From NCBI GenBank assembly GCA_028699085.1, contig JAQVVF010000004.1, positions 2,143 through 66,142 of the forward strand: a DNA stretch of 64,000 nt, written 5' to 3'. The notes beneath the pieces are model-generated. The model searched no databases. It was not told the DNA's origin and saw nothing but the letters and a program-made list of their open reading frames with translations. The translations under genes were made by a program, and so were the position numbers. This document shows positions 5,595 to 54,621 of this stretch, piece after piece; within the stretch, counting starts at the first letter, position 1, and the number at the start of each line of letters is the position of its first letter. The DNA is from Patescibacteria group bacterium (GTDB taxonomy: Bacteria; Patescibacteriota; JABMPQ01; JAQVVF01).

Positions 5595-5601
5595 AATAAA
5601 C

Positions 5602-6516: not shown

Positions 6517-6517
6517 T

Positions 6518-9379: not shown

Positions 9380-9406
9380 CCAATAAAAAAAGACTAGCAA
9401 CTAGTC

Positions 9407-10135: not shown

Positions 10136-10205
10136 TTCCTCCTCCTTCTCTATAATAAAGTACTGAGCAAAACTGACTGATAAAATATATAACAAATACT
10201 ATAAA

Positions 10206-11849: not shown

Positions 11850-11868
11850 ATAACTTAATCTATTCAAA

Positions 11869-13444: not shown

Positions 13445-13498
13445 CTGCTAAATTCACATATTCGTGGATTAGTATTATTTGTATATTCGTTTATCTCT

Positions 13499-14362: not shown

Positions 14363-16256
14363 CGAAATAATAAAAAACAAAATAAAACCAGCTCACATTG
14401 TTCTCGGAATTATTGGTTTATTTATTTTGCTAATTCTTGGCAGTATCTATCCAAGCTTAAGTGCTTACAAATCAGCAATGCAAGGAAAAAATGATCTCAT
14501 GGACGCAGAAAAAGCTGTCAAAGATCAAAATTTTGCCCAAGCTGCAACAACATTAAAGAAATCAAGCGACAATTTCAGAAGGGCAAAAAACAATATGTAT
14601 TTTTTGGTTTGGTTAAAAATAATTCCTTATGTCGGAATTCAATACAGCGCAGCCGAACATCTTGTCAAAGCAGCATATAATATTACATCGGGACTTCAAG
14701 AAACAACCTTGTCTATCGAAAATATTATAAAACCACTTCAAGCAGAAAACGTAAAATCTGTTCGAGGAGTATCAGAAAATCAAAAAGCTGAAATTATTAA
14801 AAATATTTACAATGCATCACCAAATTTTGCCGAAAGCTCGAGCAAAATAAAAATGGCTGAAATTGAAATCAATCGCATTCCAACATTTTTAACATTACAA
14901 AAAATTACAGATATAAAAAATCAAGTTAATCAATATTTACCGATGATTAATGAAGTCATGGAACAAGTAGCTCAAGGCTCAAAACTGTTACCAGAAGCTT
15001 TAGGCTATCCAAATGAGCAAACTTATCTGTTTTTACTAGAAAATAATTCTGAATTGCGTCCAGGCGGAGGATTTATTGGAACTTATGGCATAATAAAAAT
15101 TAAAGATGGCGAATTAACAAAATTAAAAACTGATAATGTTTACAATTTAGACTATCCATCGAAAATTCAGGTGACTGCCCCATGGCAATTTGCAAAATAT
15201 GTTGATCCAAAAATTAAGTCCTGGTATCTTCGAGATTCTAACTGGTCACCTGATTTTCCAACGAATGCCGAAAAAGCAATTTGGTTTTATAAACAAGAAG
15301 GCGGAGAAGAAAAAAATATAGATGGAGTAGTTGCAATTACTCCGACTTTTATTGAATATCTGCTAGAAGTTATTGGACCAATCAAAGCCAGAGATGATAA
15401 ATTCACATCTGAAAATATTACCGAAAAAATTCAACAATATACAACTGGAGCATACGAAGGCAAAGTTGTAATTCTAGAACAAAAAACCAGAAAAGGAATA
15501 ATAGGCGATCTCTCTAAATCATTGCTTGGAAAAATATTTTTATTAAAAAAAGACAAATGGCCAGAAATGCTAAAGGCAGTTCAAAAAGGCTTTCAAGACA
15601 AACAAGCGCTTGTTTATTTTGCTGACAAGAATAAAGAAAAAATGCTTGAAAAAAATGGTTTAGCTGGATCAGTTAACCAAGACACTAAAAACAGCGACTA
15701 TTTGATGGTTGTTGATTCGAATATGGCAAGTTTAAAAACTGATCCTTATATGGATCGCACTATTGAATATATAGTTGAACCAAATGGACAAGCAAAAGTT
15801 GCCATTACCTATACAAATAATGCTGTTCCAGCACTTTTAGCAACAAGATATCGATCCTGGACCAGAATCTATGTTCCAAAAGGAAGTGAATTTATAAGCG
15901 TTGAAAATAATGAAAAAGGTCTCGATCTCTATAATTCTGAACAAAGCTATGAAATATCAGAAGATTTAAACAAATCAGTTTTTGGCACATTTATTAACAT
16001 CGAAACTCAAGAAACAAAAACAATTACATACAATTATATTTTACCAAAATATGTAAGAGATCAAGTCAAAAAGAAAGAGTACAAAATAATTGTTCAAAAA
16101 CAAGCTGGTGTCACTGACCAAGATTTAATAATAAATTATAACTCTAACGAACAAATTAATAATATTTCACCTGAAAACCTAGGAGAAATCAAAAATAATA
16201 AAGCAGTCTTTAAAACAAAGTTGCAAAGCGATAAAGAATTTACAATTAACTATTAA
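14322..16256 (+). CDS. DUF4012-domain protein with N-terminal membrane anchor
   Basis: Single N-terminal TM helix. DUF4012 hallmark LENNSELRPGGGFIGTYG. The family is commonly found in cell-wall polysaccharide loci. Confidence 0.6.
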   Translation: MDKKMNNIKQPANNEIIKNKIKPAHIVLGIIGLFILLILGSIYPSLSAYKSAMQGKNDLMDAEKAVKDQNFAQAATTLKKSSDNFRRAKNNMYFLVWLKIIPYVGIQYSAAEHLVKAAYNITSGLQETTLSIENIIKPLQAENVKSVRGVSENQKAEIIKNIYNASPNFAESSSKIKMAEIEINRIPTFLTLQKITDIKNQVNQYLPMINEVMEQVAQGSKLLPEALGYPNEQTYLFLLENNSELRPGGGFIGTYGIIKIKDGELTKLKTDNVYNLDYPSKIQVTAPWQFAKYVDPKIKSWYLRDSNWSPDFPTNAEKAIWFYKQEGGEEKNIDGVVAITPTFIEYLLEVIGPIKARDDKFTSENITEKIQQYTTGAYEGKVVILEQKTRKGIIGDLSKSLLGKIFLLKKDKWPEMLKAVQKGFQDKQALVYFADKNKEKMLEKNGLAGSVNQDTKNSDYLMVVDSNMASLKTDPYMDRTIEYIVEPNGQAKVAITYTNNAVPALLATRYRSWTRIYVPKGSEFISVENNEKGLDLYNSEQSYEISEDLNKSVFGTFINIETQETKTITYNYILPKYVRDQVKKKEYKIIVQKQAGVTDQDLIINYNSNEQINNISPENLGEIKNNKAVFKTKLQSDKEFTINY

Positions 16257-22976: not shown

Positions 22977-24437
22977 ATGTTAAAAACAAACAAAAAAAAC
23001 ATATTTTCAAGAATATTTTATTTTAAAATCAATAAAAGCGCTTTTTGCATTCTTACTTTGTTTTTTTTAATTGCTTTAGGATTTATCTTTGCTATAGCTT
23101 ATCAAGACCTCTATCAAATTTATGAAGTTTATACAATTAGAAATAATAATAGTACTGAACTTGTTCAACCAAACGAAAAAATTAAAATAAAATATAATAT
23201 TCCAATTTCCGAAAAAAAAGCCCAATCTTCATTTTCTATTTATCCTCAAATCAAAGGAAAAATCACCTGGGAAAGAAACTACCTTTTTGGCTACTCAAAA
23301 GTTTTAGTTTTTGCACCAGAAAAATATTTTGATGAAAACCAAAATTATTCCATCAAAATAGGGGATGTTGAAAGCATCTTTGGCACTAAAATTGGAAATC
23401 GTATCTATACTTTTTCTACAGTCAAGCCATTTAAAATCGTTGATACTTATCCAAAGAATGATCAAAAAGACATCAATGTTAATCCAGAAATAAAAGTCAC
23501 AGTTGATGGAATTGGCGATGCATTTGATTTTAATTTTAAACTTGAACCCTCAACAGAGCTCAAGGTTAAAGACAAGATTGAAGAAAATGGTCAAACAACT
23601 TATATTATTGATCCAGTTACTCAACTAGGACAGGGGATTGATTACACTTTTACAGTAAAACAAACCTATACACCAAACAAGAAAGCAGTAGACACAAAAA
23701 CCTTTCATTTTACGACACTATCACCAGTAGAAATTTCAAAAGTATTGCCAGAAGATAATGACCAAAATGTCCATGTCAAAAGAAAAGTATCTCTAGCTTT
23801 CAATAAGCCTGTCGATCATCAACAAGTAGAGAATAATTTTTCTTTGATGCCAGAAACAAAAGGGAATATTGGGTGGAAGGAAAACACCATGACCTTTACT
23901 CCAGAAGATAAATTTGCCAAAAATACCGAATATAAGATAAAAGTAATAGGCAATATCAAAAGCACACAAGATGAATCTTTCTTAGAAGGCGATAAAGAAT
24001 ACACATTCAAGACTAGAGATACTGATCAATATCCGCCGCAGCCAACTTGGGAACCAAAATATAAAGAAGGTAAATACATTCATGTTAATTTAGGTACTCA
24101 AACCCTTTATGCTTACGATAATGGGGAATTGATTGATTCATTTTTAATCTCTTCCGGCGTCTCAGCTTTCCCAACTCCAACAGGTGATTTCAAGGTTACT
24201 AGCAAAGTTCGATCAGCCAGAATGTCCCATACCTACGGTCCTGGCAATCCTAATAATTATGATCTACCTGGTGTCCCTTTTGTTTTAGCCTTTAATGGAC
24301 CTTATACAATTCATGGAACATATTGGCATAGTAATTTCGGCACACCAATGAGTCATGGCTGTGTGAACATGTATACGCCTGATGCAGAATGGGTCTATAA
24401 TTGGGCGCCAATTGATACGCCAGTTGTAATAGAATAG
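22977..24437 (+). CDS. L,D-transpeptidase (YkuD domain) with N-terminal TM anchor and Ig-like repeats
   Basis: C-terminal catalytic region IHGTYWHSNFGTPMSHGCVNM (His/Cys dyad of YkuD). Confidence 0.8.
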   Translation: MLKTNKKNIFSRIFYFKINKSAFCILTLFFLIALGFIFAIAYQDLYQIYEVYTIRNNNSTELVQPNEKIKIKYNIPISEKKAQSSFSIYPQIKGKITWERNYLFGYSKVLVFAPEKYFDENQNYSIKIGDVESIFGTKIGNRIYTFSTVKPFKIVDTYPKNDQKDINVNPEIKVTVDGIGDAFDFNFKLEPSTELKVKDKIEENGQTTYIIDPVTQLGQGIDYTFTVKQTYTPNKKAVDTKTFHFTTLSPVEISKVLPEDNDQNVHVKRKVSLAFNKPVDHQQVENNFSLMPETKGNIGWKENTMTFTPEDKFAKNTEYKIKVIGNIKSTQDESFLEGDKEYTFKTRDTDQYPPQPTWEPKYKEGKYIHVNLGTQTLYAYDNGELIDSFLISSGVSAFPTPTGDFKVTSKVRSARMSHTYGPGNPNNYDLPGVPFVLAFNGPYTIHGTYWHSNFGTPMSHGCVNMYTPDAEWVYNWAPIDTPVVIE

Positions 24438-38192: not shown

Positions 38193-38918
38193 ATGGTTAG
38201 CATTGTTTTACCGACCTATAATGAAGTCGATAATTTCAAAAAAATAGTTCGCGAAATATTAACTGTTTTTCGAGATAATAATATTAATGGCAATATTATT
38301 ATTGTTGATGACAACTCTCCTGATCAAACAGGAGTAATGGCCCAAAGACTAAGTGAAAATATGCCCAAAACGCTCTATGTAATCAACAGAGAAGCAAAAA
38401 TGGGATTAGGATCCGCATATATCGCTGGATTTAAAAAAGCACTCTTCTTGGGCGCTGATTATATTTTTGAAATGGATGCTGACTTTTCTCACAATCCGCA
38501 TAGCATCCCCAGTTTTTTAAAGGCAATGAAAGATTCAGATCTAGTTATTGGCTCTCGTTATATTAATGGCGGCTCAACTAAAAATTGGGAACTTTATCGA
38601 AAATTAATTAGTCGATTTGGAACATTATATGCTAAAACAATCCTAAAACTTGAAATTAATGATCTTACTTCCGGATTTCGTTGCTATAAACGCCAAGTTT
38701 TAGAAAAAATCAACCTTGATCAAATTCAGTCTGATGGTTATTCTTTCCAAATTGAAATGGCTTTTAAAACAAAATTAGCAGGCTTTAAAATAAAAGAAAT
38801 ACCAATTGTCTTTGCTGATCGCAAAAATGGTATTTCAAAATTCTCTAAAAAGATATTTTGGGAAGCATTTACTGTTGTGTGGAAATTAAGATTTCAAAAT
38901 AAGGAAATAAAAAACTAA
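38193..38918 (+). CDS. Polyprenol-phosphate mannose/hexose synthase (GT2, Dpm1-like)
   Basis: VSIVLPTYNEVDN...IIVDDNSPDQTG and DADFSHNP motifs typical of Dpm1/Ppm1. Would supply donor for GT-C enzymes. Confidence 0.75.
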   Translation: MVSIVLPTYNEVDNFKKIVREILTVFRDNNINGNIIIVDDNSPDQTGVMAQRLSENMPKTLYVINREAKMGLGSAYIAGFKKALFLGADYIFEMDADFSHNPHSIPSFLKAMKDSDLVIGSRYINGGSTKNWELYRKLISRFGTLYAKTILKLEINDLTSGFRCYKRQVLEKINLDQIQSDGYSFQIEMAFKTKLAGFKIKEIPIVFADRKNGISKFSKKIFWEAFTVVWKLRFQNKEIKN

Positions 38919-39427
38919 TCTATCATTGCTAACAAATTGCCACATTTTTCGCATAACTTTGCTTCCTTAAGATCAGTATCAAGAATATTATTAGAAAAAT
39001 GCATTGGACATTTTTTATCTGGGCAATGGGATAATCCAAAATTATGGCCTAATTCGTGGATTGACTCTTTCAAAACCCTATTTGCAAATAATTTTTTATC
39101 CTTATCATGCAATCTAAATGTCGAAACAATGCTTTGTCTGCCTGGACAATCGCCTTGTCCAAAAATATAATTATATTCCAAAGCATATAGATCTTTATCA
39201 GTTACTATTAAAATTTTCTCCAAATCCTCAAATTCAATTTTCTGCATATCTAATAAAATTTTTTCTGCATCATATTGTTTCTTCTCTGGATTAAAAGCAA
39301 AATCAGGCACATCAACTGGCCCGATTTTTTTTATCCGAAAGTCAAAAATTTTCTGTAAGCCATTTTCAAAACCTATCCAATCAAAATTATCAACCTTGCC
39401 AGCTTCAAGAACATAAACACTATTCAT
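38915..39427 (-). CDS. Archaemetzincin-like zinc metalloprotease
   Basis: HELGHNFGLSHCPDKKCPMHFSNN...CEKCGN matches the archaemetzincin HExxHxxGxxHCx4CxMx17CxxC signature. Confidence 0.7.
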   Translation of the reverse strand: MNSVYVLEAGKVDNFDWIGFENGLQKIFDFRIKKIGPVDVPDFAFNPEKKQYDAEKILLDMQKIEFEDLEKILIVTDKDLYALEYNYIFGQGDCPGRQSIVSTFRLHDKDKKLFANRVLKESIHELGHNFGLSHCPDKKCPMHFSNNILDTDLKEAKLCEKCGNLLAMID

Positions 39428-39436
39428 AAAAATTAT

Positions 39437-42001
39437 TTATTGCTTCATATTATCAATATCCATCAAAGTAATTGTATACTCACTTCCTCTTTTAATCTCA
39501 CCAGTTAACATTTTCTTTGCCAAAATATTTTCAACATAATTTTGTATTGTACGCATGATTGGTCTTGCGCCCATCAAAGGATCAAAACCAAGCTCTGCCA
39601 ATCTCTCAATCCCAGGCTCATCAACTCTCAAAAAGATCCCTTTTTCTTGCTCTAATCTTTTGACTAATTTGCCTAACAACATCTTTGTAATTTGCAAAAC
39701 ATGCTCTTTTTCCAAAGGCTTAAAATATACAACAGAAGTAAATCTATTCAAAAATTCTGGCCTAAATATTCCTTCTGCTTGCAAATAATTAATTAGCCTT
39801 TCTTTTAATACAACTGGATCAAGATGTTGTTTTATTCCTTCTTGAATTAAATTAGCACCAGCATTAGAGGTTGCAATAATCATTGCATTATTAAATTTTA
39901 CTTTTCTGCCCAAAGAATCAGTTAGCCATCCTTCATCTAGCATTTGCAAAAACAAATTTAAAATATCTTTATGCGCTTTTTCAATTTCATCAAATAATAT
40001 AACTGTAAAAGGATTATCTTTTACTGCATTTGTTAATTCTCCGCCAGCTTTGGCTTCAGGAGTACCTGGAGGAGGTCCAATCAAACGGTAAACGCCAGAT
40101 AAATCTTGATATTCCGACATATCAAAACGAATCATTGATTTTTCTGAACCAAAATATGCTTCTGCCAATGCTTTTGTAGTTTCAGTTTTTCCAACACCAG
40201 TCGGACCTAAAAATAAAAAACTACCAACTGGCTTATTTCCTGCTTCAACACCAGACCTAGCCCTTCTTAATGCATTAGAAACAACTTTAATCGCCTCCTC
40301 TTGATCAACTACTCGCTTGTGCAAAAAATCCTCTAGATGCAATAACAATTGTTTTTCCGCACCTTCAGCCTCGCCAATCGGTGCCTTAACTTTTTTCTTC
40401 ATTAATGTCTCCACATGTCTCGGCAATACGATTGTTCCTCGACCAAATGCAGATGCAAATACGATTACTTCATTCAATAAATCAATTGCCTTTTCCGGAA
40501 AAGGCTTTGAATACAAAAATTGATCAGCTAATTTGTAAATCGATTTTAAAGCTGGATAACTCATAATTACTCCTCCTTGAGATTCTAACTTTGGAGCTAA
40601 GTCTTCTAGAATTCTTAGGGTTGTATTCTCATTTGGTTCAGCTATATCCAGAATCTCAAATTTGTCAGAAACTGCTGATCTTGTTTCTATGTATTGATGA
40701 AAGTCATCAGAATTTGCCGTTGAAACAAAATATAAATTTGGATTTTCCAAAAATGGCACTAAGACTTGAGAAGCATCAATTGATCCAACCTTTCCTTCTC
40801 CACTTCCAAATAACTTTTGGATATTATCAATAAACAAAACAATATTTCCTGCAACAACAGAATCAGACATTACGGCCTCTAGTCTTTCTATAATCTCGCC
40901 TGGAGTCTGCGCTCCTGCCAACAGCCTATCGACATCCAATTCAATCAGTCTTTTATTAGCCAAACTAGAATATGTAGTTCCTTCTAAAATTCTTTTTGCC
41001 AAACCCAAAACAACAGTTCTTTTACCAACGCCAGGAGCGCCAACTAAAATTATATTGTGATGAGTTGCTCGAACAAGGACATCCTCAATTTGATTAATAT
41101 CTTTTTCATGACCAATAATATGAAAAGAAAGCGCACCTCTCAATATTTCATCCGTTAAATCATGGCCAAACGCTCTTAAAGCTCTCGTGTAGCCATAAGC
41201 CCATTCTCTACCGATGCCACCTTTTCTTTTTATCTTGTCTGGATCAAAATTCTTCTCTTTTCTAAATTTATAAAAAGATGTTTCCCAATGGACAATATTA
41301 GCAATGTCTTCAATTTTCAAATTCAAATCAAACAAAATCTTTTTCATTAAAGGATCAAGAACAGACAATACAACGAAAACATCACCACAGCTAACTATTT
41401 CATGCCCCTCTAAATAACCCACTTCCAAAGCTTTTTCCAATATTTGTGATAAATCAACATATCCTTTTGATTTTCCTGATGCATATTTTTCAACATGTTT
41501 TTCTAAATCTATAACGCTTAAACCAGTACGATTGACAATAAATCTTATTGATTTTACTTTCAACAATTCCAATAGTAAATCAGAAGAATTAACCATGTTA
41601 TTCTTTTTGTCTTCACTCTTCTTCAAGGCATTAGAAATCGCAATCGCTAAATTTATTGACACAAAATCAGCCAGATTTATGTTTCCATTTTTCTTCGCAA
41701 TATCCAAAGCATCTTTTAAGGAAATTATTGGCTTTACATTTTTTACTCCAGATTCATAAAAAATATGGAATGACAGATAGAATAAAGAAATAGCTAGACT
41801 AATAATCGCCAATCCTAACATCCTACTATTAAAATTCAAATTATATAAACTTGAAAAATTATACAAAATGACAAATGCAAAAGAACATATTCCAAGTAAA
41901 TATACAAAAAAAGATAATATTTTAAATATAAAAACTCTTAAGAATTTTACTAATCTTGAATATCTAAAAATTTTAGATTTTCCTTCATCAAATACAATCA
42001 T
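39437..42001 (-). CDS. Membrane-anchored Clp/Hsp100-family double AAA+ ATPase (no M-domain, degenerate D1 Walker B)
   Basis: Two N-terminal TM helices and a Clp_N-like repeat region. D1 Walker A GAPGVGKRT with Walker B VLFIDNIQ (N replaces the catalytic E). D2 Walker A GPTGVGKTE with intact Walker B ILFDEIEKAH. Sensor/arginine-finger regions present. No coiled-coil M-domain and no IGF loop. Confidence 0.8.
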   Translation of the reverse strand: MIVFDEGKSKIFRYSRLVKFLRVFIFKILSFFVYLLGICSFAFVILYNFSSLYNLNFNSRMLGLAIISLAISLFYLSFHIFYESGVKNVKPIISLKDALDIAKKNGNINLADFVSINLAIAISNALKKSEDKKNNMVNSSDLLLELLKVKSIRFIVNRTGLSVIDLEKHVEKYASGKSKGYVDLSQILEKALEVGYLEGHEIVSCGDVFVVLSVLDPLMKKILFDLNLKIEDIANIVHWETSFYKFRKEKNFDPDKIKRKGGIGREWAYGYTRALRAFGHDLTDEILRGALSFHIIGHEKDINQIEDVLVRATHHNIILVGAPGVGKRTVVLGLAKRILEGTTYSSLANKRLIELDVDRLLAGAQTPGEIIERLEAVMSDSVVAGNIVLFIDNIQKLFGSGEGKVGSIDASQVLVPFLENPNLYFVSTANSDDFHQYIETRSAVSDKFEILDIAEPNENTTLRILEDLAPKLESQGGVIMSYPALKSIYKLADQFLYSKPFPEKAIDLLNEVIVFASAFGRGTIVLPRHVETLMKKKVKAPIGEAEGAEKQLLLHLEDFLHKRVVDQEEAIKVVSNALRRARSGVEAGNKPVGSFLFLGPTGVGKTETTKALAEAYFGSEKSMIRFDMSEYQDLSGVYRLIGPPPGTPEAKAGGELTNAVKDNPFTVILFDEIEKAHKDILNLFLQMLDEGWLTDSLGRKVKFNNAMIIATSNAGANLIQEGIKQHLDPVVLKERLINYLQAEGIFRPEFLNRFTSVVYFKPLEKEHVLQITKMLLGKLVKRLEQEKGIFLRVDEPGIERLAELGFDPLMGARPIMRTIQNYVENILAKKMLTGEIKRGSEYTITLMDIDNMKQ

Positions 42002-42049
42002 TTTTATTTTTTAATTATAACTTTTAATTTTTTACTTTTTACTTTTACC
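42002..42049 (-). promoter_or_regulatory. Related array of 7-nt-periodic GTAAAAA heptads immediately upstream of the Clp ATPase gene (minus strand)
   Basis: Minus-strand read: GGTAAAA GTAAAAA GTAAAAA ATTAAAA GTTATAA TTAAAAA ATAAAA, then the ATG. Shares GGTAAAAGT, GTAAAAAGTAAAAAAT and GTTATAA with the 55270-55335 element. Confidence 0.4.
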
Positions 42050-42424
42050 TTATCTAAGATACATAATACCAAACACAATTCCTTCGACTAACAACATCGG
42101 TAATAATAACCAAATAACTATCACCGATACTTCAAAACAAAGTAAAACCGAAAAACAAATTAAAAAAATCAATAGAGTTATCGATTTAATAACAAAACCG
42201 AACATCCTTGCAATCATATTTCCTCCCCAAACACCAAATCTTTCCTGCAAACTCATTCCTTCAGTCGAAACTACATCTCTTTTCCACGGCGCAAACAAAG
42301 TCGTTAAACAAATCCTTACTGAAAAAGTATCAGTCAAAACCAAAATAAATGCTCTTAAATATTTAAGCATTCTAATTAAACCATAAGAATACCACCATTC
42401 AATATAATCCAAAAAAATTTGCAT
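42050..42424 (-). CDS. Small polytopic membrane protein, unknown function
   Basis: About 4 TM helices. Operon position between the BON gene and the Clp gene. Confidence 0.4.
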   Translation of the reverse strand: MQIFLDYIEWWYSYGLIRMLKYLRAFILVLTDTFSVRICLTTLFAPWKRDVVSTEGMSLQERFGVWGGNMIARMFGFVIKSITLLIFLICFSVLLCFEVSVIVIWLLLPMLLVEGIVFGIMYLR

Positions 42425-42430
42425 TTTGTT

Positions 42431-42664
42431 TTATATTTTTTCTATTTGCAAATCATTATTAATTAATGCAACGCCAGGAATATCAGAAATTGTATCTTCT
42501 AAATCTTGTTTTTCCTCTAATGTTTCTACTGTCCCTGATAATGTCACTTTGCCTTCATTTACCTCAACGTTAACATTATCAGTCATTATGTCTTCTTCCT
42601 CCAAAAACGCTTTCTCAATATCCTGATAAATATCTTTATCAGAACGGTTTACAAAATCAGACAT
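42431..42664 (-). CDS. BON-domain protein
   Basis: VTLSGTVETLEEKQDLEDTISDIPGV is the BON domain pattern. 77 aa. Confidence 0.6.
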   Translation of the reverse strand: MSDFVNRSDKDIYQDIEKAFLEEEDIMTDNVNVEVNEGKVTLSGTVETLEEKQDLEDTISDIPGVALINNDLQIEKI

Positions 42665-42699
42665 ATTTTTAATTTATTTTTTAAATTACCATTTTTTAT

Positions 42700-42728
42700 A
42701 TTATATCAAAAATTACTAAATTTCACAA
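42700..42728 (-). promoter_or_regulatory. Candidate promoter (TTGTGA-17-TATAAT, minus strand) for the BON-membrane-Clp-archaemetzincin operon
   Basis: Minus-strand read: TTGTGAAATTTAGTAATTTTTGATATAAT. Lies upstream of the BON gene start at 42664. Preceded by TTGTAAAAGTAAA. Confidence 0.45.
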
Positions 42729-44137: not shown

Positions 44138-44644
44138 ATGGATCTGAAAACTTTCATCTGTGTCGTCTTGTTTGTTGCCGGATTCGGTAGTTTGATTGCT
44201 TACGCTGATAATAATGATGTTGATCGTCTAATCTGTAACGGTGAACAAATTTGTATGCAAGAAATGCAACTTGGGAAAATTGACGAAAGGTTGGAAAGCG
44301 CCAGAGCTGATCTGCAGATGGCTGATAAAGCTTTGGGACAGATGATCCACTATGATGGCATTTGGCCCAAGACTGAAGAATCTCGGGACTGGTATCAAGG
44401 AAAACGCGGACTTGTTTGTTCCACCAATCGCAAAACAAAGCGTGAGATTCCCGTGGTTGAAAGAGATCTCAAAACTCTTCACTTTTCAAACCATGCTGGA
44501 ATTTCTAATCGCGCAAAACTAAAACTAGAAGACATTCAAACTGATCCAGTAATCAAATTCTTCCTCACTGATACGCCATGTCAGCGAGCTGAACAAGCTT
44601 GCAAGCACTTTGGCTGCACAGAGATTATCGAAGGCTCTTTGTAA
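44138..44644 (+). CDS. Secreted Cys-rich small protein, compositionally atypical (about 45-50% GC)
   Basis: Signal peptide MDLKTFICVVLFVAGFGSLIAYA. Six Cys in the mature part. Own promoter, SD and terminator. Segment GC is about 50% versus about 30% background (counted on 60-nt samples). Confidence 0.6.
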   Translation: MDLKTFICVVLFVAGFGSLIAYADNNDVDRLICNGEQICMQEMQLGKIDERLESARADLQMADKALGQMIHYDGIWPKTEESRDWYQGKRGLVCSTNRKTKREIPVVERDLKTLHFSNHAGISNRAKLKLEDIQTDPVIKFFLTDTPCQRAEQACKHFGCTEIIEGSL

Positions 44645-44734: not shown

Positions 44735-45457
44735 TTATCTTTCTTCAATAATCAGATCAGAATATTTTTGCTTTAATTTACTTAATAACAACGCCACATC
44801 AATCTTTTTACTTTGATCTAAATTAGGATCTAAATTTTTAATATATCTAATATTCTGCAGATAATATTTTTCGCCTTTTTTCAAATAGCTTGCCATTTCC
44901 ATAAAATCTTTTTCAACATGCTTCTGAGGATATACAGTTGTTCTAAATTCATGATCAACTCCAGATTCCTGAATTAATCTAAAAGATTTCAGACATTTCT
45001 CCACCAATAATTTACAACTATCAACTGGCAACTTGTTACTAGCAACAACCTCACCATAATTTTGCCAAGAAGATTTCAAATCCATTGCTACATAATCAAG
45101 CAATTTTTTATCAAATAGTTCTTTTAACATCTCTGGATTTGATCCATTCGTATCCAGTTTCACTGAATAATCAATCTTTTTTAACTTCGCAATAAAATCA
45201 ACTAAATCAGTTTGCAAAGTTGGCTCTCCCCCAGTTATACAAATCCCATCTAACATTTTTTTCTTTTCAACCAAATAGCCAAGGATTTCATCCTCGGTTA
45301 TTTGTGATTTATTTTTATTATCAAATACCAATTCTGGATTATGACAGAACGGACATCTAAAGTTGCATCCTTGCAGAAACACTATTGCGCAAATCTTGTC
45401 TGGGTATTCTAACAGGCTCAATTTTTGGAATCCCGCTATTTTCATAGCTATTTTCAT
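44735..45457 (-). CDS. nrdG: Anaerobic ribonucleoside-triphosphate reductase activating protein (radical SAM)
   Basis: CNFRCPFCHNPE radical-SAM cluster motif. Adjacent to nrdD. Confidence 0.85.
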   Translation of the reverse strand: MKIAMKIAGFQKLSLLEYPDKICAIVFLQGCNFRCPFCHNPELVFDNKNKSQITEDEILGYLVEKKKMLDGICITGGEPTLQTDLVDFIAKLKKIDYSVKLDTNGSNPEMLKELFDKKLLDYVAMDLKSSWQNYGEVVASNKLPVDSCKLLVEKCLKSFRLIQESGVDHEFRTTVYPQKHVEKDFMEMASYLKKGEKYYLQNIRYIKNLDPNLDQSKKIDVALLLSKLKQKYSDLIIEER

Positions 45458-47255
45458 ATTTTAAATTCTTGATTTCATATTCTTTGCGTTCTGAATACTC
45501 GCTTTGCTTACCTTTATTCCATTGTGAAACAGGCCTAAAATACCCCATCACTCTCGACCAAACTTCACATTCCTTTTCACAAATTGGACAATGCTTTTGC
45601 TCTCCATTCAAATAGCCATGTGTTGGACAAATACTAAATGTAGGAGTCATTGTAAAATATGGCAAACGATAATTTTCAGCAATTCTTTTTACCAAATCTC
45701 GACAGACTTTCCAGTTCATAATTCTTTCGCCTAAGAACATATGTAATACTGTTCCGCCCGTATATTTAGTCTGCAAATCATCTTGGTGATCAAGTGCTTC
45801 CATCGGATTATCCGTATAACTAACTGGTAAATGAGTAGAATTAGTATAATATGGTGCATCTTTTGTTCCAGCCTGAATAATATCTGGATATCTCTTTTGA
45901 TCTTCTTTGGCAAAACGATAAGTTGTTCCTTCCGCTGGAGTTGCTTCCAAATTATAAAAATTATTTGTTTCTTCTTGATAATCAGCTAGTTTTTTTCTCA
46001 TAAAATCTAGCACTTCAACAATAAATTTCTTTGATTCTGAATGAGAAATATCCTCGCCTAAAAAGTTAAGACATGCTTCGTTAGATCCATTTATGCCAAT
46101 TGTTGAAAAATGATTATGTAATGACCCAAGATAGCGCTTTGTATAAGGCAATAATCCTTTTTCCATATTTTCTTCAATCACTTTTCTTTTCATTTCCAAA
46201 GAAATTTTCGCTAAATCCATCAATTTTGCCAGCCTTTGTAAAAAGTCTTCTTTTGTTTTTGCTAAATATCCAATTCTTGCCAAATTGATTGTTACAACTC
46301 CGATACTGCCAGTCATTTCTGCAGAGCCAAATAAACCTCCGCCTTTTGCCTTTAATTCACGCAAATCTAGTTGCAATCTGCAACACATACTTCTCACGTC
46401 TGAAGGCTTTAAACTTGAATTTAAGAAATTCTGAAAATATGGAGTGCCATATTTAGCTGTCATTTCAAATAATAATTTCACGTTCTCGTTTTCCCAATCA
46501 AAATCTTTTGTAATATTATAAGTCGGAATTGGAAATGTAAAAATTCTACTTTTATTATCGCCTGTAATCATAGTTTCAATAAAAGCTTTGTTCACCATAT
46601 CCATTTCTTTCTGACAATCGCCATATGTAAAATCAACAACTTTTCCACCAATAACTGGCTTTCTTGTTCGCATATCTTCAGGACAGACCCAATCCAAAGT
46701 CACATTTGTAAATGGAGTCTGCGTTCCCCATCGAGATGGAACATTTAGATTAAAAACAAATTGCTGAATATTTTGTTTTACTTTTTCATAATCTAAATTA
46801 TCAATTTTTACAAATGGAGCTAAATAGGTATCAAAAGATGAGAAAGCTTGTGCGCCTGCCCATTCATTTTGCAATGTTCCTAGAAAATTAACCATTTGAC
46901 CCAAGGCTGTCTCTAAATGCTTTGCTGGTCCTGATTCAACTTTTCCCGAAACACCATTAAAGCCTTCTTCCAAAAGCTGTCTAATGCTCCATCCAGCGCA
47001 ATAACCTGAAAACATATCCAAATCATGAATATGATAATCACCATGAATATGAGCTTGTCCAACTTCCTTTGGATAAATCTTGTGGAGCCAATAGTTAGCT
47101 ACAACTTTTCCAGCAGTATTCAAAATCATACCGCCTAAAGAATATCCTTGGTTTGCATTAGCTGAAACTCGCCAATCCATTTTTCCTAGATATTCGTCAA
47201 TTGTTGACAAAACATCAACATTAATCTCTTTTTTTGTTTGTGTGTTTTCTTTCAT
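45357..47255 (-). CDS. nrdD: Anaerobic ribonucleoside-triphosphate reductase (class III)
   Basis: C-terminal Zn ribbon CPICEKEC and glycyl-radical motif RVMGYF. Overall length. Overlaps the annotated nrdG start by about 100 nt. Confidence 0.85.
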   Translation of the reverse strand: MKENTQTKKEINVDVLSTIDEYLGKMDWRVSANANQGYSLGGMILNTAGKVVANYWLHKIYPKEVGQAHIHGDYHIHDLDMFSGYCAGWSIRQLLEEGFNGVSGKVESGPAKHLETALGQMVNFLGTLQNEWAGAQAFSSFDTYLAPFVKIDNLDYEKVKQNIQQFVFNLNVPSRWGTQTPFTNVTLDWVCPEDMRTRKPVIGGKVVDFTYGDCQKEMDMVNKAFIETMITGDNKSRIFTFPIPTYNITKDFDWENENVKLLFEMTAKYGTPYFQNFLNSSLKPSDVRSMCCRLQLDLRELKAKGGGLFGSAEMTGSIGVVTINLARIGYLAKTKEDFLQRLAKLMDLAKISLEMKRKVIEENMEKGLLPYTKRYLGSLHNHFSTIGINGSNEACLNFLGEDISHSESKKFIVEVLDFMRKKLADYQEETNNFYNLEATPAEGTTYRFAKEDQKRYPDIIQAGTKDAPYYTNSTHLPVSYTDNPMEALDHQDDLQTKYTGGTVLHMFLGERIMNWKVCRDLVKRIAENYRLPYFTMTPTFSICPTHGYLNGEQKHCPICEKECEVWSRVMGYFRPVSQWNKGKQSEYSERKEYEIKNLKYENSYENSGIPKIEPVRIPRQDLRNSVSARMQL

Positions 47256-51093: not shown

Positions 51094-54000
51094 TTAAGCT
51101 ACTTTCCTAACTTCATAACATCCATCTTTAATTTCATAACCATTAAAATTTAATGATGATTTTAATTTAACAACTTTTTCATCACTCGCCTGAGATTTTA
51201 CATAAGTATTAATTTTTTCACGATTACTCGTAGTTCCAGGTACACCAGTCACCAAAACTGATTTTAATTTTCGTCTCTTAGCAATTTTAGCCGCAGCATT
51301 ATAAACTTGCTCACAGAAACTGCTTGCCTGCAATTTATTCAAATATTCATCTCTTGGATTATTTGCCCGAACAATCAAATGACCTTCTCTCTCTATCAAA
51401 ACTACTCCGCCAATTATTTGACGCTTTTGCGGATCATTAGGATTAATCACAAATTTACAAGGCACTGCTTCTGGCCAATTTTTTAGCATTTGATCAATCC
51501 TAGTATAACAAGCTTCTGAATAATAACCACTTAATTCACCAACAAATCCACGATCTGGAATCATCGAAATTTCTTCCTGACTTCCTTCCAACGATGCTTC
51601 CATTCTCTGCATTGTTTCCACCATGTTATTCATTGTCAAAATTTTTCTCAAACGTCCAAAATCCTGAGCCGACGGCATCCAATCACCAAAATATTTTCTA
51701 GCTTCTTTTTTGGAACCTTTCAATACATGGTCTTTCAAAACATTCATTGTAATATCACGAACAAATTGAGCGCCTTCCAAATAAACTACACTATTATTTT
51801 GCATTGGCAATGGCAATTGTTCATAGCCAGAATGATTTGTCATCGCTTTATGAAATAATATTCTACGCATAAATGGCGATGTAAAATCATTCTCTTTCTT
51901 AATATTCAAACCCTCTTCACAATTCAATAGCGCTCGCAAAACATCATCCATCGAAGAACTGCTTTTTACTTTTGCCAATCCTGCTTCTAATACATCTGCT
52001 TTCTTTCTCATCGCTTTAAATCTTGCCTCATTAGCAGTTGTTAAATCCAAAGCACCTAATTCTTGCTGCCACATTTCAGCTATTTCATTCTTCATTCTAT
52101 CCAAGCCCTTTGCTTGAGTTAAATCATAAGCTCCCAAAAGATCTTGGCGAAAACGGCGATATTCTGCTACTACCTCTGGTCGTTGCAACGAATCCAAATT
52201 ATTTTTTACTCTTTCTACTTTCAAAGTCATAGTCTCATATCCAGCTGGCAGTTCTTTTATCTCGCCTTTATTTTCAGCCTCTGCAAATTGTCTATATACT
52301 GTTTCTAAATTTTTATCTGGCCTCGCCCACCTGCTTGTGTTAAACATTGTTCCAACTGCCAAAACATCATAATCAAAAGGCGTCATTTTTTCTGGAGATG
52401 GCAAATTACCGCTAATCAGATCTTCCTTGATTTGCAAAAGCCTAGTTTCCATTTCTGCAACCGAAGTCATTTTGTCTGCTATTTGCTCTGCTGGCAAAAC
52501 TTTTAATTCTCCTCTTTCCACTTTCTGCAAATTAGTAAAATACTGGTATAAACGCGGTGTCTGTTCTAAACCAAAACGCCCTACAAAAGCAGAAAAATCT
52601 GTAATTCCGCTTGCTGATAATTCGAAACCACAATCTTGATTACTTAAATAAACAAGATATGGCCGGACTTTATCATTTGCTGATCCAGTCAAAGCTTCCG
52701 GATAACGCCCTGTTACTTTTACCAATTCATCAAAAGCCTCAGGCGCTAATAACAAACGATATTGCTCTAATGAAAAAATTTGGACAACTTCTTTGGGAGT
52801 AAAAGCCATTGCATCCAGAATCTCTCGATCACTTTGATTTACAAAATCAGGATTCAATCTCGCCAAAGAATAATCAAAACCTTTACCTTTCTGCAATGAA
52901 TTAAAAACCATTACTCTAAGTTGTGTTTTACTTGGTCCGACTCCTAGTAATTCTTTAACTTTCTCAACTTCTGTTTTATTATTTTCTAAAGACGAGTAAA
53001 TCCTATCAATTTCTCCCTGCGTTAAATCCAAGTTCTTTACAATTTCTTGATCCGATAGATCCTTGAATTCTGGATTCATTCGCGCCAAAGCAAGAGCCAT
53101 TTCACCTTGCTGACTACCTAGTGATCTTATTAAACTTTCGCTCAATAATTTTTTACTAGGAGGCATTCCATATCGTTCATTCAATGTATTACAATTATTC
53201 ATTATTTTCGCCTTCTTTTCAGCCGGTAAAGTAAGTTGTTCTTGATCGTCTTGATGCTTAAGAATCAAATCACTATAAACTCCACTATAAAAATTTGCAT
53301 AAGCTAAATCAATTATTCTAGCTCTAGCTTCCTGATCCACGCCAAATTTTTCAATAAATCGATCTAATTTTTCAAAACTAAAATTATTATCTTCTACAAT
53401 ATAACGTAATCTAGCATCAATGATCTTATCAATCATGTTTCTGGAAATCCATTCTGCTTTTATCTGCCCTTTATCAACTGCTTGATACAGATAGTAATAG
53501 TCTAAAGGATCTATATATCTATGCTCTTCAGATTCTTTTTCAAGGCTTGCAACCATCTTGCCAACATAACCTTTCTGCTCATCTTCCGGCAAAGCTCCAA
53601 ATTTATCTTCAAAAAAATCCAAATTTTTTATTATCTTCTTTTCACTATATTGTTCAAACAATACTGTCTTTACATTATCAGGTATCTGATCTGGGAATTG
53701 GTCTGGATCCAGACCGGCTAAAGATTTCAAATCAACGCCATCTCTAATTACCGCTTCTGCAATTCTTAAAATATTTTCTTTTGGGTATTGCCAATGAAAC
53801 CAATGTCCAGTTTTAACTCTCTCCCTTGCCAAAACAGAAGGAGCCTTCTGGAGTAACATTTGCTCATACTCTTCTCTCATCTCATCATCATATTCTTGTT
53901 TACCATGTTTTTGTTTTGTTTCTTCATCAGCCATCATTGAAATTTGTCTAACACAAGATTGCATCAACGTTTCTCCAGTTTCAGTAAACCTTATTACTGG

Positions 54001-54621
54001 TTCATACTTCGATTTATAACCTTCTAAACCTCGATAAAAATTTACCATTCCATCAAAATTTTCAGCTTTTTTTAGCTCTAAAAATCTATTGAATAAAGAA
54101 TCATGCATCTGTCTTTGGACACCATCCCAGCTAATTCGATCAAAATCACGCTTATTTCTTCCATAATATGTTTCAATAACACTTTTTCCAAATCTAGGAA
54201 ACTTTAATTCCGAATATCTTTCAGCCCATGAAGCTTTGTCATTATAAATTTTCAAAGCCTCATCTAAATTACCACTTTTTAATAATCTTCTGATTTGTTT
54301 TACAGCACCGATATATTCTTTGGCTCGCTGTCTATTTTCAACATATTCTGATATTTTCTTTTCAAAACGACCATAAACAGTTTTTGCTTTTTCAGCAATA
54401 CCAGCTAATCTTCCTTTTGTTTTTTCATCAACAGAACTCTCATGGCTCTCAGCCACTTTTTCCGCAGATGACAAACCAGTTTCCTGGAGATTATCAACCC
54501 GCTGTCTCGCTTGTTCTAATCTCTGCTCCATTAATTTTTCAGGACTTAATTCTTGCTCCTTCTTTTTTTGTTCTTGTTGTTTTTCATGCTCCAAAATCGC
54601 AATATCTTCTTTACCAATCAT
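51094..54621 (-). CDS. Large (1175 aa) cytoplasmic protein of unknown function with internal repeats
   Basis: Long uninterrupted ORF. No signal peptide, P-loop or known catalytic motif. Internal ~37-aa repeat (LARMNPEFKDLSDQEIVKNL... and LARLNPDFVNQSDREILDAM...). GC about 35%, slightly above neighbours. Confidence 0.5.
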   Translation of the reverse strand: MIGKEDIAILEHEKQQEQKKKEQELSPEKLMEQRLEQARQRVDNLQETGLSSAEKVAESHESSVDEKTKGRLAGIAEKAKTVYGRFEKKISEYVENRQRAKEYIGAVKQIRRLLKSGNLDEALKIYNDKASWAERYSELKFPRFGKSVIETYYGRNKRDFDRISWDGVQRQMHDSLFNRFLELKKAENFDGMVNFYRGLEGYKSKYEPVIRFTETGETLMQSCVRQISMMADEETKQKHGKQEYDDEMREEYEQMLLQKAPSVLARERVKTGHWFHWQYPKENILRIAEAVIRDGVDLKSLAGLDPDQFPDQIPDNVKTVLFEQYSEKKIIKNLDFFEDKFGALPEDEQKGYVGKMVASLEKESEEHRYIDPLDYYYLYQAVDKGQIKAEWISRNMIDKIIDARLRYIVEDNNFSFEKLDRFIEKFGVDQEARARIIDLAYANFYSGVYSDLILKHQDDQEQLTLPAEKKAKIMNNCNTLNERYGMPPSKKLLSESLIRSLGSQQGEMALALARMNPEFKDLSDQEIVKNLDLTQGEIDRIYSSLENNKTEVEKVKELLGVGPSKTQLRVMVFNSLQKGKGFDYSLARLNPDFVNQSDREILDAMAFTPKEVVQIFSLEQYRLLLAPEAFDELVKVTGRYPEALTGSANDKVRPYLVYLSNQDCGFELSASGITDFSAFVGRFGLEQTPRLYQYFTNLQKVERGELKVLPAEQIADKMTSVAEMETRLLQIKEDLISGNLPSPEKMTPFDYDVLAVGTMFNTSRWARPDKNLETVYRQFAEAENKGEIKELPAGYETMTLKVERVKNNLDSLQRPEVVAEYRRFRQDLLGAYDLTQAKGLDRMKNEIAEMWQQELGALDLTTANEARFKAMRKKADVLEAGLAKVKSSSSMDDVLRALLNCEEGLNIKKENDFTSPFMRRILFHKAMTNHSGYEQLPLPMQNNSVVYLEGAQFVRDITMNVLKDHVLKGSKKEARKYFGDWMPSAQDFGRLRKILTMNNMVETMQRMEASLEGSQEEISMIPDRGFVGELSGYYSEACYTRIDQMLKNWPEAVPCKFVINPNDPQKRQIIGGVVLIEREGHLIVRANNPRDEYLNKLQASSFCEQVYNAAAKIAKRRKLKSVLVTGVPGTTSNREKINTYVKSQASDEKVVKLKSSLNFNGYEIKDGCYEVRKVA

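What the first reader, a model, noticed from the sequence alone, without database searches (positions are those of the whole stretch)
38915..42728. Operon coupling a membrane-anchored double-AAA+ Clp/Hsp100 ATPase with an archaemetzincin Zn-protease, a BON-domain protein and a small membrane protein
Four minus-strand genes sit with 6-48 nt gaps behind a single TTGTGA-17-TATAAT promoter at 42700-42728. They are the BON gene (42431-42664), a 4-TM membrane protein (42050-42424), the TM-anchored Clp ATPase (39437-42001) and an archaemetzincin (38915-39427, which starts 9 nt after Clp ends). A membrane-tethered AAA+ unfoldase followed directly by a small HExxH zinc protease resembles FtsH split into separate polypeptides. 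FtsH is a membrane anchor plus AAA+ plus M41 Zn-protease, whereas this uses a Clp-type two-ring motor and an archaemetzincin-type protease. I am not aware of a described Clp-archaemetzincin partnership. Archaemetzincin substrates are unknown in any organism. A BON domain is a membrane/lipid-binding module and would fit an envelope quality-control role. The arrangement could be a novel membrane protein quality-control or regulated-proteolysis module in reduced-genome bacteria.
Basis: partly seen in the sequence, partly recalled or inferred. Interest (0 to 1): 0.65.

Follow-up and report, generated by a model that had tools for sequence, protein, structure and literature searches.

The report
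Membrane Clp-like ATPase plus archaemetzincin
A Patescibacteria gene cluster pairs a membrane-anchored Clp-like ATPase that has lost its substrate-gripping loops with a small orphan membrane protein found next to it in every locus checked, and one lineage has added an archaemetzincin protease and a BON protein; this is interesting, but it is not the "split FtsH" first proposed.

Summary
The four minus-strand genes exist exactly as described, and profile searches confirm the archaemetzincin (M54), two-AAA Clp/Hsp100 and BON assignments. They probably form one operon: gaps are 6, 48 and 9 nt, and an extended -10 promoter upstream of BON is conserved in relatives.

The Clp is not a canonical unfoldase. 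D1 Walker A and B are degenerate. Neither ring has the canonical pore-loop tyrosine motif (0 of 117 homologues). There is no M-domain and no ClpP-docking loop.

The deeply conserved unit is the small membrane protein (TM4, motif FxPWKRD) plus the Clp. They were adjacent in all 12 distinct full loci examined, at down to 35% identity of the Clp N-terminal half. At least five independent lineages fuse them into one polypeptide.

Archaemetzincin and BON occur only in one subclade (Clp at least 43% identical). They are absent from 6 of 6 more distant TM4-Clp loci. None of 80 archaemetzincin loci from other lineages has a Clp nearby. Unrelated downstream genes are just as syntenic, so adjacency is weak evidence.

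Best reading: an undescribed, D2-driven membrane AAA+ module, probably non-threading, that one lineage extended with AMZ and BON.

The parts
42700..42728 (-). Probable operon promoter: TTGTGA, 17-nt spacer, TG-extended TATAAT
   Evidence: 10 of 12 matches, TG present. The extended -10 is invariant in the window, L001, L004 and L007. The same site is the top hit in L001.
42431..42664 (-). 77-aa acidic single-BON-domain protein with no signal peptide or TM segment, so predicted cytoplasmic
   Evidence: Pfam BON 54.7 bits. No hydrophobic segment. Present only in the AMZ-containing subclade: 7 of 7 loci, against 0 of 6 outside it.
42050..42424 (-). TM4: 124-aa orphan helical membrane protein, the conserved partner of the Clp
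   Evidence: No Pfam, NCBIfam, PADLOC or PHROG family. 749 homologues and 1,328 representatives at 50% identity. Directly upstream of Clp in all 12 distinct full loci. Fused to Clp in P0407, P0366, P0409, P0051 and P0339. AF2 pLDDT 91.8. No structural neighbour.
42272..42298 (-). Signature loop LFAPWKRDV of TM4 (family motif TLF[AQ]PWKRD)
   Evidence: W47, R49 and D50 are invariant, and F44, P46 and K48 at least 90% conserved, in 56 sequences. Translation.
39437..42001 (-). 854-aa membrane-anchored class-I Hsp100-like ATPase: TM hairpin, all-alpha N-domain, degenerate D1, intact D2
   Evidence: Foldseek TM-score 0.82-0.85 (normalised by target) to ClpC, ClpB and ClpA protomers. Scores below every NCBIfam equivalog cutoff.
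41744..41932 (-). Two-helix TM hairpin anchor of the Clp (residues 24-86)
   Evidence: Kyte-Doolittle segments 17-53 and 59-82. AF2 helices 24-49 and 55-86. K/R-rich flanks imply N-in, C-in topology (read from the sequence). Translation.
41015..41041 (-). D1 Walker A GAPGVGKRT, non-canonical (GK-R-T instead of GKT)
   Evidence: alignment to ClpB. 0 of 117 homologues have a canonical D1 Walker A.
40892..40918 (-). D1 pore-loop position AGAQTPGEI (canonical AGAKYRGEF), no tyrosine
   Evidence: 0 of 117 are KYR-like.
40817..40837 (-). D1 Walker B LFIDNIQ, with the catalytic Glu replaced by Asn
   Evidence: Only 45 of 117 family members keep DE.
40181..40207 (-). D2 Walker A GPTGVGKTE, canonical
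   Evidence: 117 of 117 canonical.
40040..40078 (-). D2 pore-loop position GPPPGTPEAKAGG (canonical GAPPGYVGYEEGG), no aromatic residue
   Evidence: 0 of 117 are GYVG-like. The loop sequence is conserved within the AMZ-linked subclade.
39974..40000 (-). D2 Walker B ILFDEIEKA, canonical
   Evidence: 117 of 117 have DE.
38915..39427 (-). 170-aa archaemetzincin (M54), predicted cytoplasmic and catalytically intact
   Evidence: NF033823 at 157.4 bits against cutoff 145. E = 2e-33 to M. kandleri AmzA 2x7m. No TM segment.
38942..39058 (-). AMZ active-site and Cys4 motif HELGHNFGLSHCPDKKCPMHF...CEKC
   Evidence: Translation. Collinear without gaps with the solved AMZs. All motif residues are invariant in 10 relatives.

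Best explanation
The locus is a lineage-specific four-gene operon built around a two-gene membrane AAA+ module found in every Patescibacteria locus examined. The core consists of TM4, a ~125-aa orphan helical membrane protein with an invariant FxPWKRD loop, and a Clp/Hsp100-derived ATPase held at the cytoplasmic face of the membrane by a two-helix hairpin. The two act as one physical unit. Only the D2 ring has a complete set of ATPase motifs. D1 is eroded, both rings lack the aromatic pore-loop paddles, and there is no M-domain and no ClpP-docking loop. From this I infer that the machine does not thread polypeptides hand over hand as ClpB, ClpC or FtsH do. It more likely uses D2 ATP turnover to remodel or switch a membrane-associated partner. 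In the window's subclade a cytoplasmic BON-domain protein and a catalytically intact, soluble archaemetzincin joined the same transcription unit. The most likely role for the AMZ is an accessory, site-specific (non-processive) peptidase acting on, or licensed by, this complex. Shown: gene content, motif states, TM4-Clp adjacency and fusions, and the subclade restriction of AMZ and BON. Inferred: co-transcription (about 0.75), a TM4-Clp complex (about 0.8), a non-threading mechanism (about 0.6), and a functional AMZ-Clp link (about 0.3).
For: Domain assignments. Motif states in 117 homologues: D1 Walker A canonical in 0; D1 Walker B DE in 45; D2 Walker A and B canonical in 117; KYR-like and GYVG-like pore loops in 0; ClpP tripeptide in 0; D1-lid to D2 linker 95-106 aa. 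RPEF.NR and GAR motifs are retained. The AF2 model (pLDDT 84) shows a TM hairpin, an all-alpha N-domain and no coiled coil, with an Hsp100 fold. TM4 is directly upstream of Clp in 12 distinct full loci at 35-100% identity of the Clp N-terminal half, with gaps from -25 to 138 nt and variable flanks. TM4-Clp fusions occur in 5 distinct representatives. Clp followed by AMZ is seen in 8 loci spanning 43-100% Clp identity, twice with an inserted gene: DUF2905 in L009 and PP2C in L013. BON and AMZ co-vary, 7 of 7 against 0 of 6. The extended -10 promoter is conserved, and no conserved internal promoter or genuine terminator was found. The AMZ motif is intact. Published AMZ structures have occluded active sites and no in vitro activity, and the authors suggest that activating factors may be needed (PMC3427221).
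Against: There is no transcript or protein data. The absence of canonical aromatic pore loops is strong but indirect evidence against threading. Within the AMZ-linked subclade the full-length D2 loop is itself conserved (PPGTPEAKAGG), so it may still contact a substrate. A few family members carry an aromatic residue in a loop (8 of 117 per ring; L105 has GSPAGY). Clp-AMZ adjacency is confined to one clade that may reflect a single acquisition. Functionally unrelated downstream genes are equally syntenic, so linkage may be historical rather than functional. The neighbourhood sample is small: 8 AMZ-linked and 6 AMZ-free loci.
Confidence: 0.6

Rival explanations
1. One reading: a split FtsH. The membrane-tethered Clp hexamer unfolds membrane or cytosolic proteins and hands them to the archaemetzincin for degradation, giving a dedicated quality-control protease. 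BON and TM4 would act as membrane adaptors.
For: The four genes are tightly packed behind one conserved promoter. AMZ starts 9 nt after Clp. Both face the cytoplasm. The AMZ catalytic motif is intact. Clp-AMZ linkage is kept down to 43% Clp identity. AMZs appear to need an activator (PMC3427221).
Against: The canonical aromatic pore-loop motif is missing in both rings, D1 is degenerate and there is no protease-docking loop. AMZ is a 170-aa enzyme, and nothing here indicates it forms a ring or chamber. AMZ is absent from 6 of 6 deeper TM4-Clp loci. 0 of 80 other AMZ loci have a Clp nearby. Only 1 of 6 AMZ-free loci has any peptidase after Clp.
Confidence: 0.12
2. AMZ and BON are bystanders. They were inserted once next to an ancestral TM4-Clp pair and have stayed there through the slow gene-order decay of these small genomes, with no functional tie to the ATPase.
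For: Downstream genes with unrelated functions (PfkB, AdoHcyase, rhodanese, Fmt, Def, PriA) keep the same order in the window, L004 and L009. NrdD-NrdG also stays near TM4-Clp across distant lineages. AMZ and Clp identities fall in parallel, as expected for vertical descent. Other genes can sit between Clp and AMZ. AMZ homologues elsewhere never sit beside a Clp.
Against: Gaps of 7-9 nt with no promoter or terminator make co-expression likely. The genes upstream of BON differ between genomes while the BON-TM4-Clp-AMZ block stays intact. BON, AMZ and a distinctive conserved D2 loop co-occur in the same subclade.
Confidence: 0.3
3. The Clp is simply this organism's ClpB/ClpC-type chaperone or disaggregase in a membrane-anchored form, still threading substrates through unconventional pore loops.
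For: The overall fold and the D2 machinery are canonical. The N-domain aligns with Clp N-domains: the ClpA model covers it from residue 117, and PF02861 hits appear in some homologues. Public annotations call it ClpC.
Against: It scores far below every equivalog cutoff (ClpB 525 against 1232; ClpA 471 against 993). There is no M-domain for DnaK or MecA coupling and no ClpP loop. KYR-like and GYVG-like loops are found in 0 of 117. From established ClpB and Hsp104 mutagenesis (my own knowledge), pore-loop tyrosines are required for disaggregation.
Confidence: 0.15

Closest known systems
Class-I Hsp100/Clp ATPases (ClpB, ClpC, ClpA)
   Same: N-domain plus two AAA+ modules plus D2-small. E about 1e-127 to T. 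thermophilus ClpB. Foldseek TM-score 0.82-0.85 (normalised by target), rmsd about 4 A, to ClpC, ClpB and ClpA protomers. D2 Walker A and B, the RPEF.NR arginine motif and the GAR sensor-2 are conserved.
   Different: N-terminal two-helix membrane hairpin. D1 Walker A non-canonical in 117 of 117, and D1 Walker B Glu lost here. No KYR or GYVG pore-loop motifs. No M-domain (95-106 aa linker). No IGF/IGL ClpP loop. Always paired with, or fused to, an orphan membrane protein.
FtsH (membrane-anchored AAA+ / M41 zinc protease)
   Same: A two-TM anchor with a cytoplasmic AAA+ domain, and a zinc HExxH peptidase encoded immediately downstream.
   Different: FtsH is one polypeptide with a single AAA+ ring, an aromatic pore loop and an M41 domain that forms the hexameric chamber (established knowledge). 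Here the protease is a separate 170-aa M54 enzyme, the ATPase lacks aromatic pore loops, and the protease is missing from 6 of 6 more distant loci.
Torsin with its LAP1/LULL1 cofactors (recalled from memory; a lead, not tested here)
   Same: A Clp-D2-related AAA+ that lacks aromatic pore loops, sits at a membrane and works with a small transmembrane cofactor.
   Different: Torsins have a single AAA+ domain, lack their own arginine finger and are eukaryotic and ER-lumenal. This protein has two rings, keeps the RPEF.NR motif and is bacterial and cytoplasmic. No homology between TM4 and LAP1 was found.
Archaemetzincins AmzA (M. kandleri 2x7m, A. fulgidus 3zvs) and AMZ-tk
   Same: Full HExxHxxGxxHC...CxM...CxxC motif, collinear without gaps with the solved structures. 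Above the NCBIfam family cutoff.
   Different: Bacterial (Patescibacteria) and encoded 9 nt after an AAA+ ATPase. No gene-context partner is reported in the two archaemetzincin papers consulted (PMC3427221, PMC4681839), and none was seen in 80 other loci.

Membership tests
Archaemetzincin (MEROPS M54) | Extended motif HExxHxxGxxHCx4CxM...CxxC (catalytic zinc site, Met-turn, Cys4 zinc site) | tested here: met
   HELGHNFGLSHCPDKKCPMHF...CEKC. Gap-free alignment to 2x7m and 3zvs. Motif residues are invariant in 10 relatives.
Archaemetzincin (MEROPS M54) | Profile score above the curated family threshold | tested here: met
   NF033823 at 157.4 bits against 145. PF07998 at 98.4 against 24.4. The non-proteolytic Myxococcus variant model scores 91 against 250, so it is not that.
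Archaemetzincin (MEROPS M54) | Zinc-dependent peptidase activity | not testable with these tools
   Needs enzyme assays. Published AMZs range from inactive (PMC3427221) to casein-degrading (PMC4681839).
Class-I Clp/Hsp100 | Two AAA+ modules plus the C-terminal D2-small domain | tested here: met
   AAA (317-431), AAA_lid_9, AAA_2 (590-756), ClpB_D2-small (763-843). Fold match.
Class-I Clp/Hsp100 | Clp_N double-repeat N-domain | tested here: inconclusive
   No PF02861 hit for this protein. The ClpA model aligns from residue 117, some homologues hit PF02861, and AF2 gives an all-alpha domain at 95-250.
Class-I Clp/Hsp100 | Functional Walker A and B in both rings | tested here: not met
   D1 has GKRT and DN. 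0 of 117 have a canonical D1 Walker A. D2 is intact in 117 of 117.
Class-I Clp/Hsp100 | Aromatic pore loops (D1 KYR, D2 GYVG) for substrate threading | tested here: not met
   QTP and GTPE at those positions. 0 of 117 have canonical loops.
ClpB / ClpC subfamilies | Coiled-coil M-domain inserted in D1 | tested here: not met
   Query residues 513 to 534 span ClpB residues 398 to 540. Linker is 95-106 aa family-wide. No coiled coil in the model.
ClpA / ClpC / ClpE (ClpP partners) | IGF/IGL-type ClpP-docking loop in D2 | tested here: not met
   No [ILVM]G[FLM] tripeptide in the relevant segment in 117 of 117.
ClpB, ClpA, ClpV, ClpG, ClpK equivalogs | NCBIfam equivalog score cutoffs | tested here: not met
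   525 against 1232; 471 against 993; 417 against 885; 410 against 1900; 398 against 1900.
FtsH-type AAA+ metalloprotease | AAA+ and M41 peptidase in one membrane-anchored polypeptide | tested here: not met
   No M41 domain. The protease is a separate M54 protein.
BON domain proteins | PF04972 domain above threshold | tested here: met
   54.7 bits against 27, covering 68 of 69 profile positions.
OsmY-like periplasmic BON proteins | Signal peptide or export, and tandem BON domains | tested here: not met
   A single domain with no hydrophobic N-terminus. OsmY model scores 27 against 174.
Operon (single transcription unit) | Same strand, short gaps, upstream promoter, no internal terminator | tested here: met
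   Gaps of 6, 48 and 9 nt. Conserved extended -10. The only internal 'terminator' lacks a T-run and lies in the conserved FPEKA coding sequence.
Operon (single transcription unit) | A transcript spanning the gene junctions | not testable with these tools
   Needs RT-PCR or metatranscriptome reads.
Known anti-phage defence systems (PADLOC) | Full-length matches to system components | tested here: not met
   Only generic AAA_2-domain similarity (DolB, PDC-M37B). AMZ, TM4 and BON have no hits.

The most novel reading that the evidence does not exclude
TM4-Clp is a bacterial, Torsin-like, non-threading membrane AAA+ machine found across Patescibacteria. In one lineage it has recruited an archaemetzincin as a dedicated effector whose occluded active site is opened, or whose substrate is presented, by the ATPase. 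That would be the first physiological partner and context for any archaemetzincin.
Probability: 0.2. Interest if true: 0.8.

Novelty: new variant of a known kind. Interest (0 to 1): 0.55.

Why it matters
Three reasons. First, it defines a large family specific to Patescibacteria: at least 1,300 TM4 representatives at 50% identity, and hundreds of Clp homologues. The family consists of membrane-anchored Hsp100 derivatives with a dead D1 ring and no aromatic pore loops, always paired with, or fused to, an orphan membrane protein. This raises the question of what a Clp scaffold does once it has lost its threading apparatus, in organisms whose envelope and host-attachment biology is poorly understood. 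Second, archaemetzincins have had no known substrate or partner since their discovery, and purified enzymes show occluded active sites. A conserved operon with an AAA+ ATPase gives a concrete, testable candidate activator, although the genomic support is limited to one clade. Third, these genes are currently annotated as 'ClpC', which would lead readers to assume ClpP-coupled proteolysis that the sequence does not support.

Tried and rejected
I used it only as supporting evidence.
4. The TM4 model has no structural neighbour in the PDB (best E = 2.4). The AFDB50 library was unavailable.
No multimer prediction was possible, so Clp-AMZ and Clp-TM4 contacts remain untested.
6. PADLOC and PHROGs gave nothing beyond generic AAA similarity, so a defence-system or phage origin is rejected.
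7. An internal promoter in the TM4-Clp gap is rejected: the window's TATAAT there is not conserved.
8. The terminator-like hairpin inside clp is rejected: it has no T-run and lies in the conserved FPEKA coding sequence.
9. A recurring 'Clp followed by some peptidase' theme is rejected: 1 of 6 AMZ-free loci.
10. Literature searches found no description of this Clp family or of a Clp-AMZ link.
11. My own earlier reading that no homologue has any aromatic residue in the pore loops was wrong. It is corrected to 8 of 117 per loop, none of them canonical.

Full report
OBSERVATION. The gaps are 6, 48 and 9 nt. The AMZ stop overlaps the end of a convergent GT2 glycosyltransferase gene. Profile searches confirm Peptidase_M54 and NCBIfam archaemetzincin (157 bits against a cutoff of 145), AAA, AAA_lid_9, AAA_2 and ClpB_D2-small, and BON. 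The membrane protein matches no Pfam, NCBIfam, PADLOC or PHROG family. Public names attached to identical proteins place the contig in Patescibacteria.

PROMOTER. Promoter-like sites in this AT-rich DNA are no more frequent than chance (36 found, 31.6 expected). The specific site at 42700-42728 is different. It has a TG-extended -10 that is invariant in four relatives whose surrounding intergenic sequence has diverged, and the same site is the best hit in L001. A TATAAT in the TM4-Clp gap is not conserved. The only internal terminator-like hairpin lacks a T-run and encodes the conserved FPEKA motif. One transcription unit is therefore likely but unproven.

THE CLP IS NOT A CANONICAL UNFOLDASE. 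I aligned it to ClpB structures.
- D1 Walker A is GKRT rather than GKT.
- D1 Walker B is DN rather than DE.
- The D1 pore loop reads QTP where ClpB has KYR.
- The D2 pore loop reads GTPEAKA where ClpB has GYVGYEE.
- The whole M-domain is missing: query residues 513 to 534 span ClpB residues 398 to 540.

These features run through the family. Among 117 full-length homologues:
- None has a canonical D1 Walker A.
- 45 keep the D1 Walker B Glu.
- All 117 keep D2 Walker A and B. RPEF.NR and GAR are also conserved.
- None has a KYR-like or GYVG-like loop. Eight per ring have some aromatic residue at non-canonical positions.
- None has a ClpP-docking tripeptide.
- The D1-lid to D2 spacing is 95-106 aa.

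The protein falls far below every NCBIfam equivalog cutoff. An AF2 model (pLDDT 84) shows two long N-terminal helices (24-49 and 55-86) matching the hydrophobic segments, an all-alpha N-domain, D1 and D2, with no coiled coil. It superposes on ClpC, ClpB and ClpA protomers at TM-score 0.82-0.85 normalised by target. K/R-rich flanks imply that both ends of the hairpin, and so the ATPase, are cytoplasmic. This is read from the sequence. By established ClpB and Hsp104 mutagenesis (my own knowledge), loss of the pore-loop tyrosines abolishes threading. I therefore infer a D2-driven, non-threading machine.

THE CONSERVED PARTNER IS THE SMALL MEMBRANE PROTEIN. TM4 carries an invariant FxPWKRD loop. 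It has 749 homologues in the word-indexed search and 1,328 representatives at 50% identity in the exhaustive profile search. Nearly all are 100-170 aa, and wherever a source name is given it is Patescibacteria.

In every full locus examined, TM4 lies directly upstream of the Clp. These are the window, L001, L004, L007, L015, L009, L010, L017, L021, L022, L103, L104 and L105. They span 35-100% identity over the Clp N-terminal half, and the last three were reached through distant TM4 homologues (36-40% TM4 identity). Gaps run from -25 to 138 nt, and the flanking genes differ.

Five distinct representatives are TM4-Clp fusions: P0407 at 890 aa, P0366 at 796, P0409 at 742, and the partial P0051 and P0339. 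This is Rosetta-stone evidence for a physical unit. The TM4 model is confident (pLDDT 91.8) and all-helical, and it has no structural neighbour in the PDB.

AMZ AND BON ARE LINEAGE-SPECIFIC ADDITIONS. Clp followed by AMZ is seen in 8 loci.
- The window, L001, L004, L007 and L015 have Clp 65-100% identical.
- L009 (47%) has DUF2905 inserted between Clp and AMZ.
- L010 (43%) has AMZ directly after Clp.
- L013 has a PP2C gene inserted between them. Its Clp fragment groups with this subclade.

A ninth case is inferred from shared contig length. BON is present in all 7 of these loci that have upstream sequence. The six more distant TM4-Clp loci have neither AMZ nor BON within 6-8 kb. What follows Clp there is variable: unknown genes, a pseudopilin, and once a C39-like peptidase.

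From the AMZ side, the 80 closest relatives in JGI metagenomes (28-48% identity) have no Clp, TM4 or BON within 6 kb, and neither does P0131. AMZ and Clp identities decline in parallel, which fits a single acquisition followed by vertical descent.

An important caveat applies. Downstream genes of unrelated function (PfkB, AdoHcyase, rhodanese, Fmt, Def, PriA) keep the same order in the window, L004 and L009. NrdD-NrdG remains near TM4-Clp even in distant lineages. Conserved adjacency in these genomes is therefore weak evidence of function. In favour of a link: the genes upstream of BON differ among subclade members while the four-gene block stays intact. The AMZ-linked subclade also shares a distinctive, conserved, full-length D2 loop (PPGTPEA[KR]AGG), whereas most other members have short variable loops.

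THE AMZ ITSELF. It is collinear, without gaps, with the crystallised M. kandleri and A. fulgidus enzymes through the whole HExxHxxGxxHC...CxM...CxxC motif. All motif residues are invariant among relatives. It has no TM segment or signal peptide. [quoted passage not shown] AMZ-tk degrades casein and self-cleaves (PMC4681839). The physiological role of archaemetzincins is unknown, and neither paper reports a gene-context partner.

MECHANISM. I commit to the following, with rough probabilities.
- TM4 plus Clp form a membrane-embedded AAA+ complex powered by D2 (about 0.8 for the complex).
- The complex remodels or switches a membrane-associated client rather than threading it (about 0.6, inferred).
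- In this lineage the operon also supplies a cytoplasmic BON protein, possibly binding the inner leaflet (speculative).
- It also supplies an intact archaemetzincin, which acts as an accessory, site-specific peptidase linked to the complex (about 0.3).

A processive split-FtsH degradation machine is unlikely (about 0.12). A pure bystander relationship for AMZ and BON remains a serious rival (about 0.3).

COMPARISON AND NOVELTY. The Clp is an Hsp100 by fold and homology, but it fails the defining functional features of ClpB, ClpC and ClpA: both rings active, aromatic pore loops, and an M-domain or a ClpP loop. It resembles FtsH only in having a two-TM anchor and a neighbouring zinc peptidase. 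The nearest functional analogy I can recall is Torsin with its transmembrane cofactors, which I did not test. Literature searches found no description of this family or of a Clp-archaemetzincin link. I rate it a new variant of a known kind, with interest 0.55. The TM4-Clp module is the more solid and broader discovery. The AMZ link is the more exciting but weaker one.

Noticed in passing
L021, L022, L103, L104, L105 (upstream of TM4); window 44735-47255: There is long-range synteny across distant Patescibacteria. NrdD-NrdG lies within a few kb of TM4-Clp in L021, L022 and L103 (NrdG alone is visible in L104), and the window has NrdD-NrdG at 44735-47255. In AMZ-free loci a CsoR-like repressor (Trns_repr_metal), a ~49-aa opposite-strand ORF and a 65-72-aa Fer4_13/15 ferredoxin recur just upstream. 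The ferredoxin occupies the slot that BON holds in the window's clade.
   Followed up: partly
window 44138-44644 (+): A 168-aa ORF with a hydrophobic N-terminus and several cysteines lies between PBP and NrdG. It has no Pfam or PHROG family. Relatives carry an equally unannotated 154-186-aa gene in the same slot.
   Followed up: partly
window 51094-54621 (-): A 1175-aa ORF has no Pfam family at E <= 1e-5.
   Followed up: no
window 1-64000: No Rfam family reaches its gathering score anywhere in the 64 kb. That means no tRNA, rRNA or riboswitch.
   Followed up: partly
L001 5298-5427: In this relative the TM4-Clp spacer is expanded to 130 nt and filled with repeated TTAGCAAAT / ATTTGCAAAT-like motifs that the window's 48-nt spacer lacks. 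It could be an operator array or a small repeat insertion.
   Followed up: no
L009 6217-6459; L013 288-1679: Other genes can sit between Clp and AMZ: a DUF2905 small membrane protein in L009, overlapping the AMZ start by 4 nt, and a 463-aa PP2C-family phosphatase in L013.
   Followed up: partly
L105 9191-9997: In a Berkelbacteria genome the gene after TM4-Clp is a Peptidase_C39_2 cysteine peptidase. This Clp also keeps a Tyr in its D2 loop (GSPAGY).
   Followed up: partly
window 40488-40505; L001 6924-6941: A perfect 7-bp hairpin (GCCTTTTCCGGAAAAGGC) inside clp is flagged as terminator-like and is conserved in L001. It encodes the conserved PFPEKA motif and lacks a T-run, so it is probably a coding-sequence coincidence.
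   Followed up: partly
window 3648-16256 and 22977-24437: The first third of the window is rich in envelope-glycan genes: two PMT_2 glycosyltransferases, a Wzy_C O-antigen-ligase-like protein and DUF4012. There is also a YkuD L,D-transpeptidase with Ig-like domains. YkuD genes also sit near TM4-Clp in L103-L105.
   Followed up: no
window 45357-45457: The listed NrdD and NrdG ORFs overlap by 101 nt. The true NrdG start is probably further downstream, since relatives show overlaps of about 20 nt.
   Followed up: no
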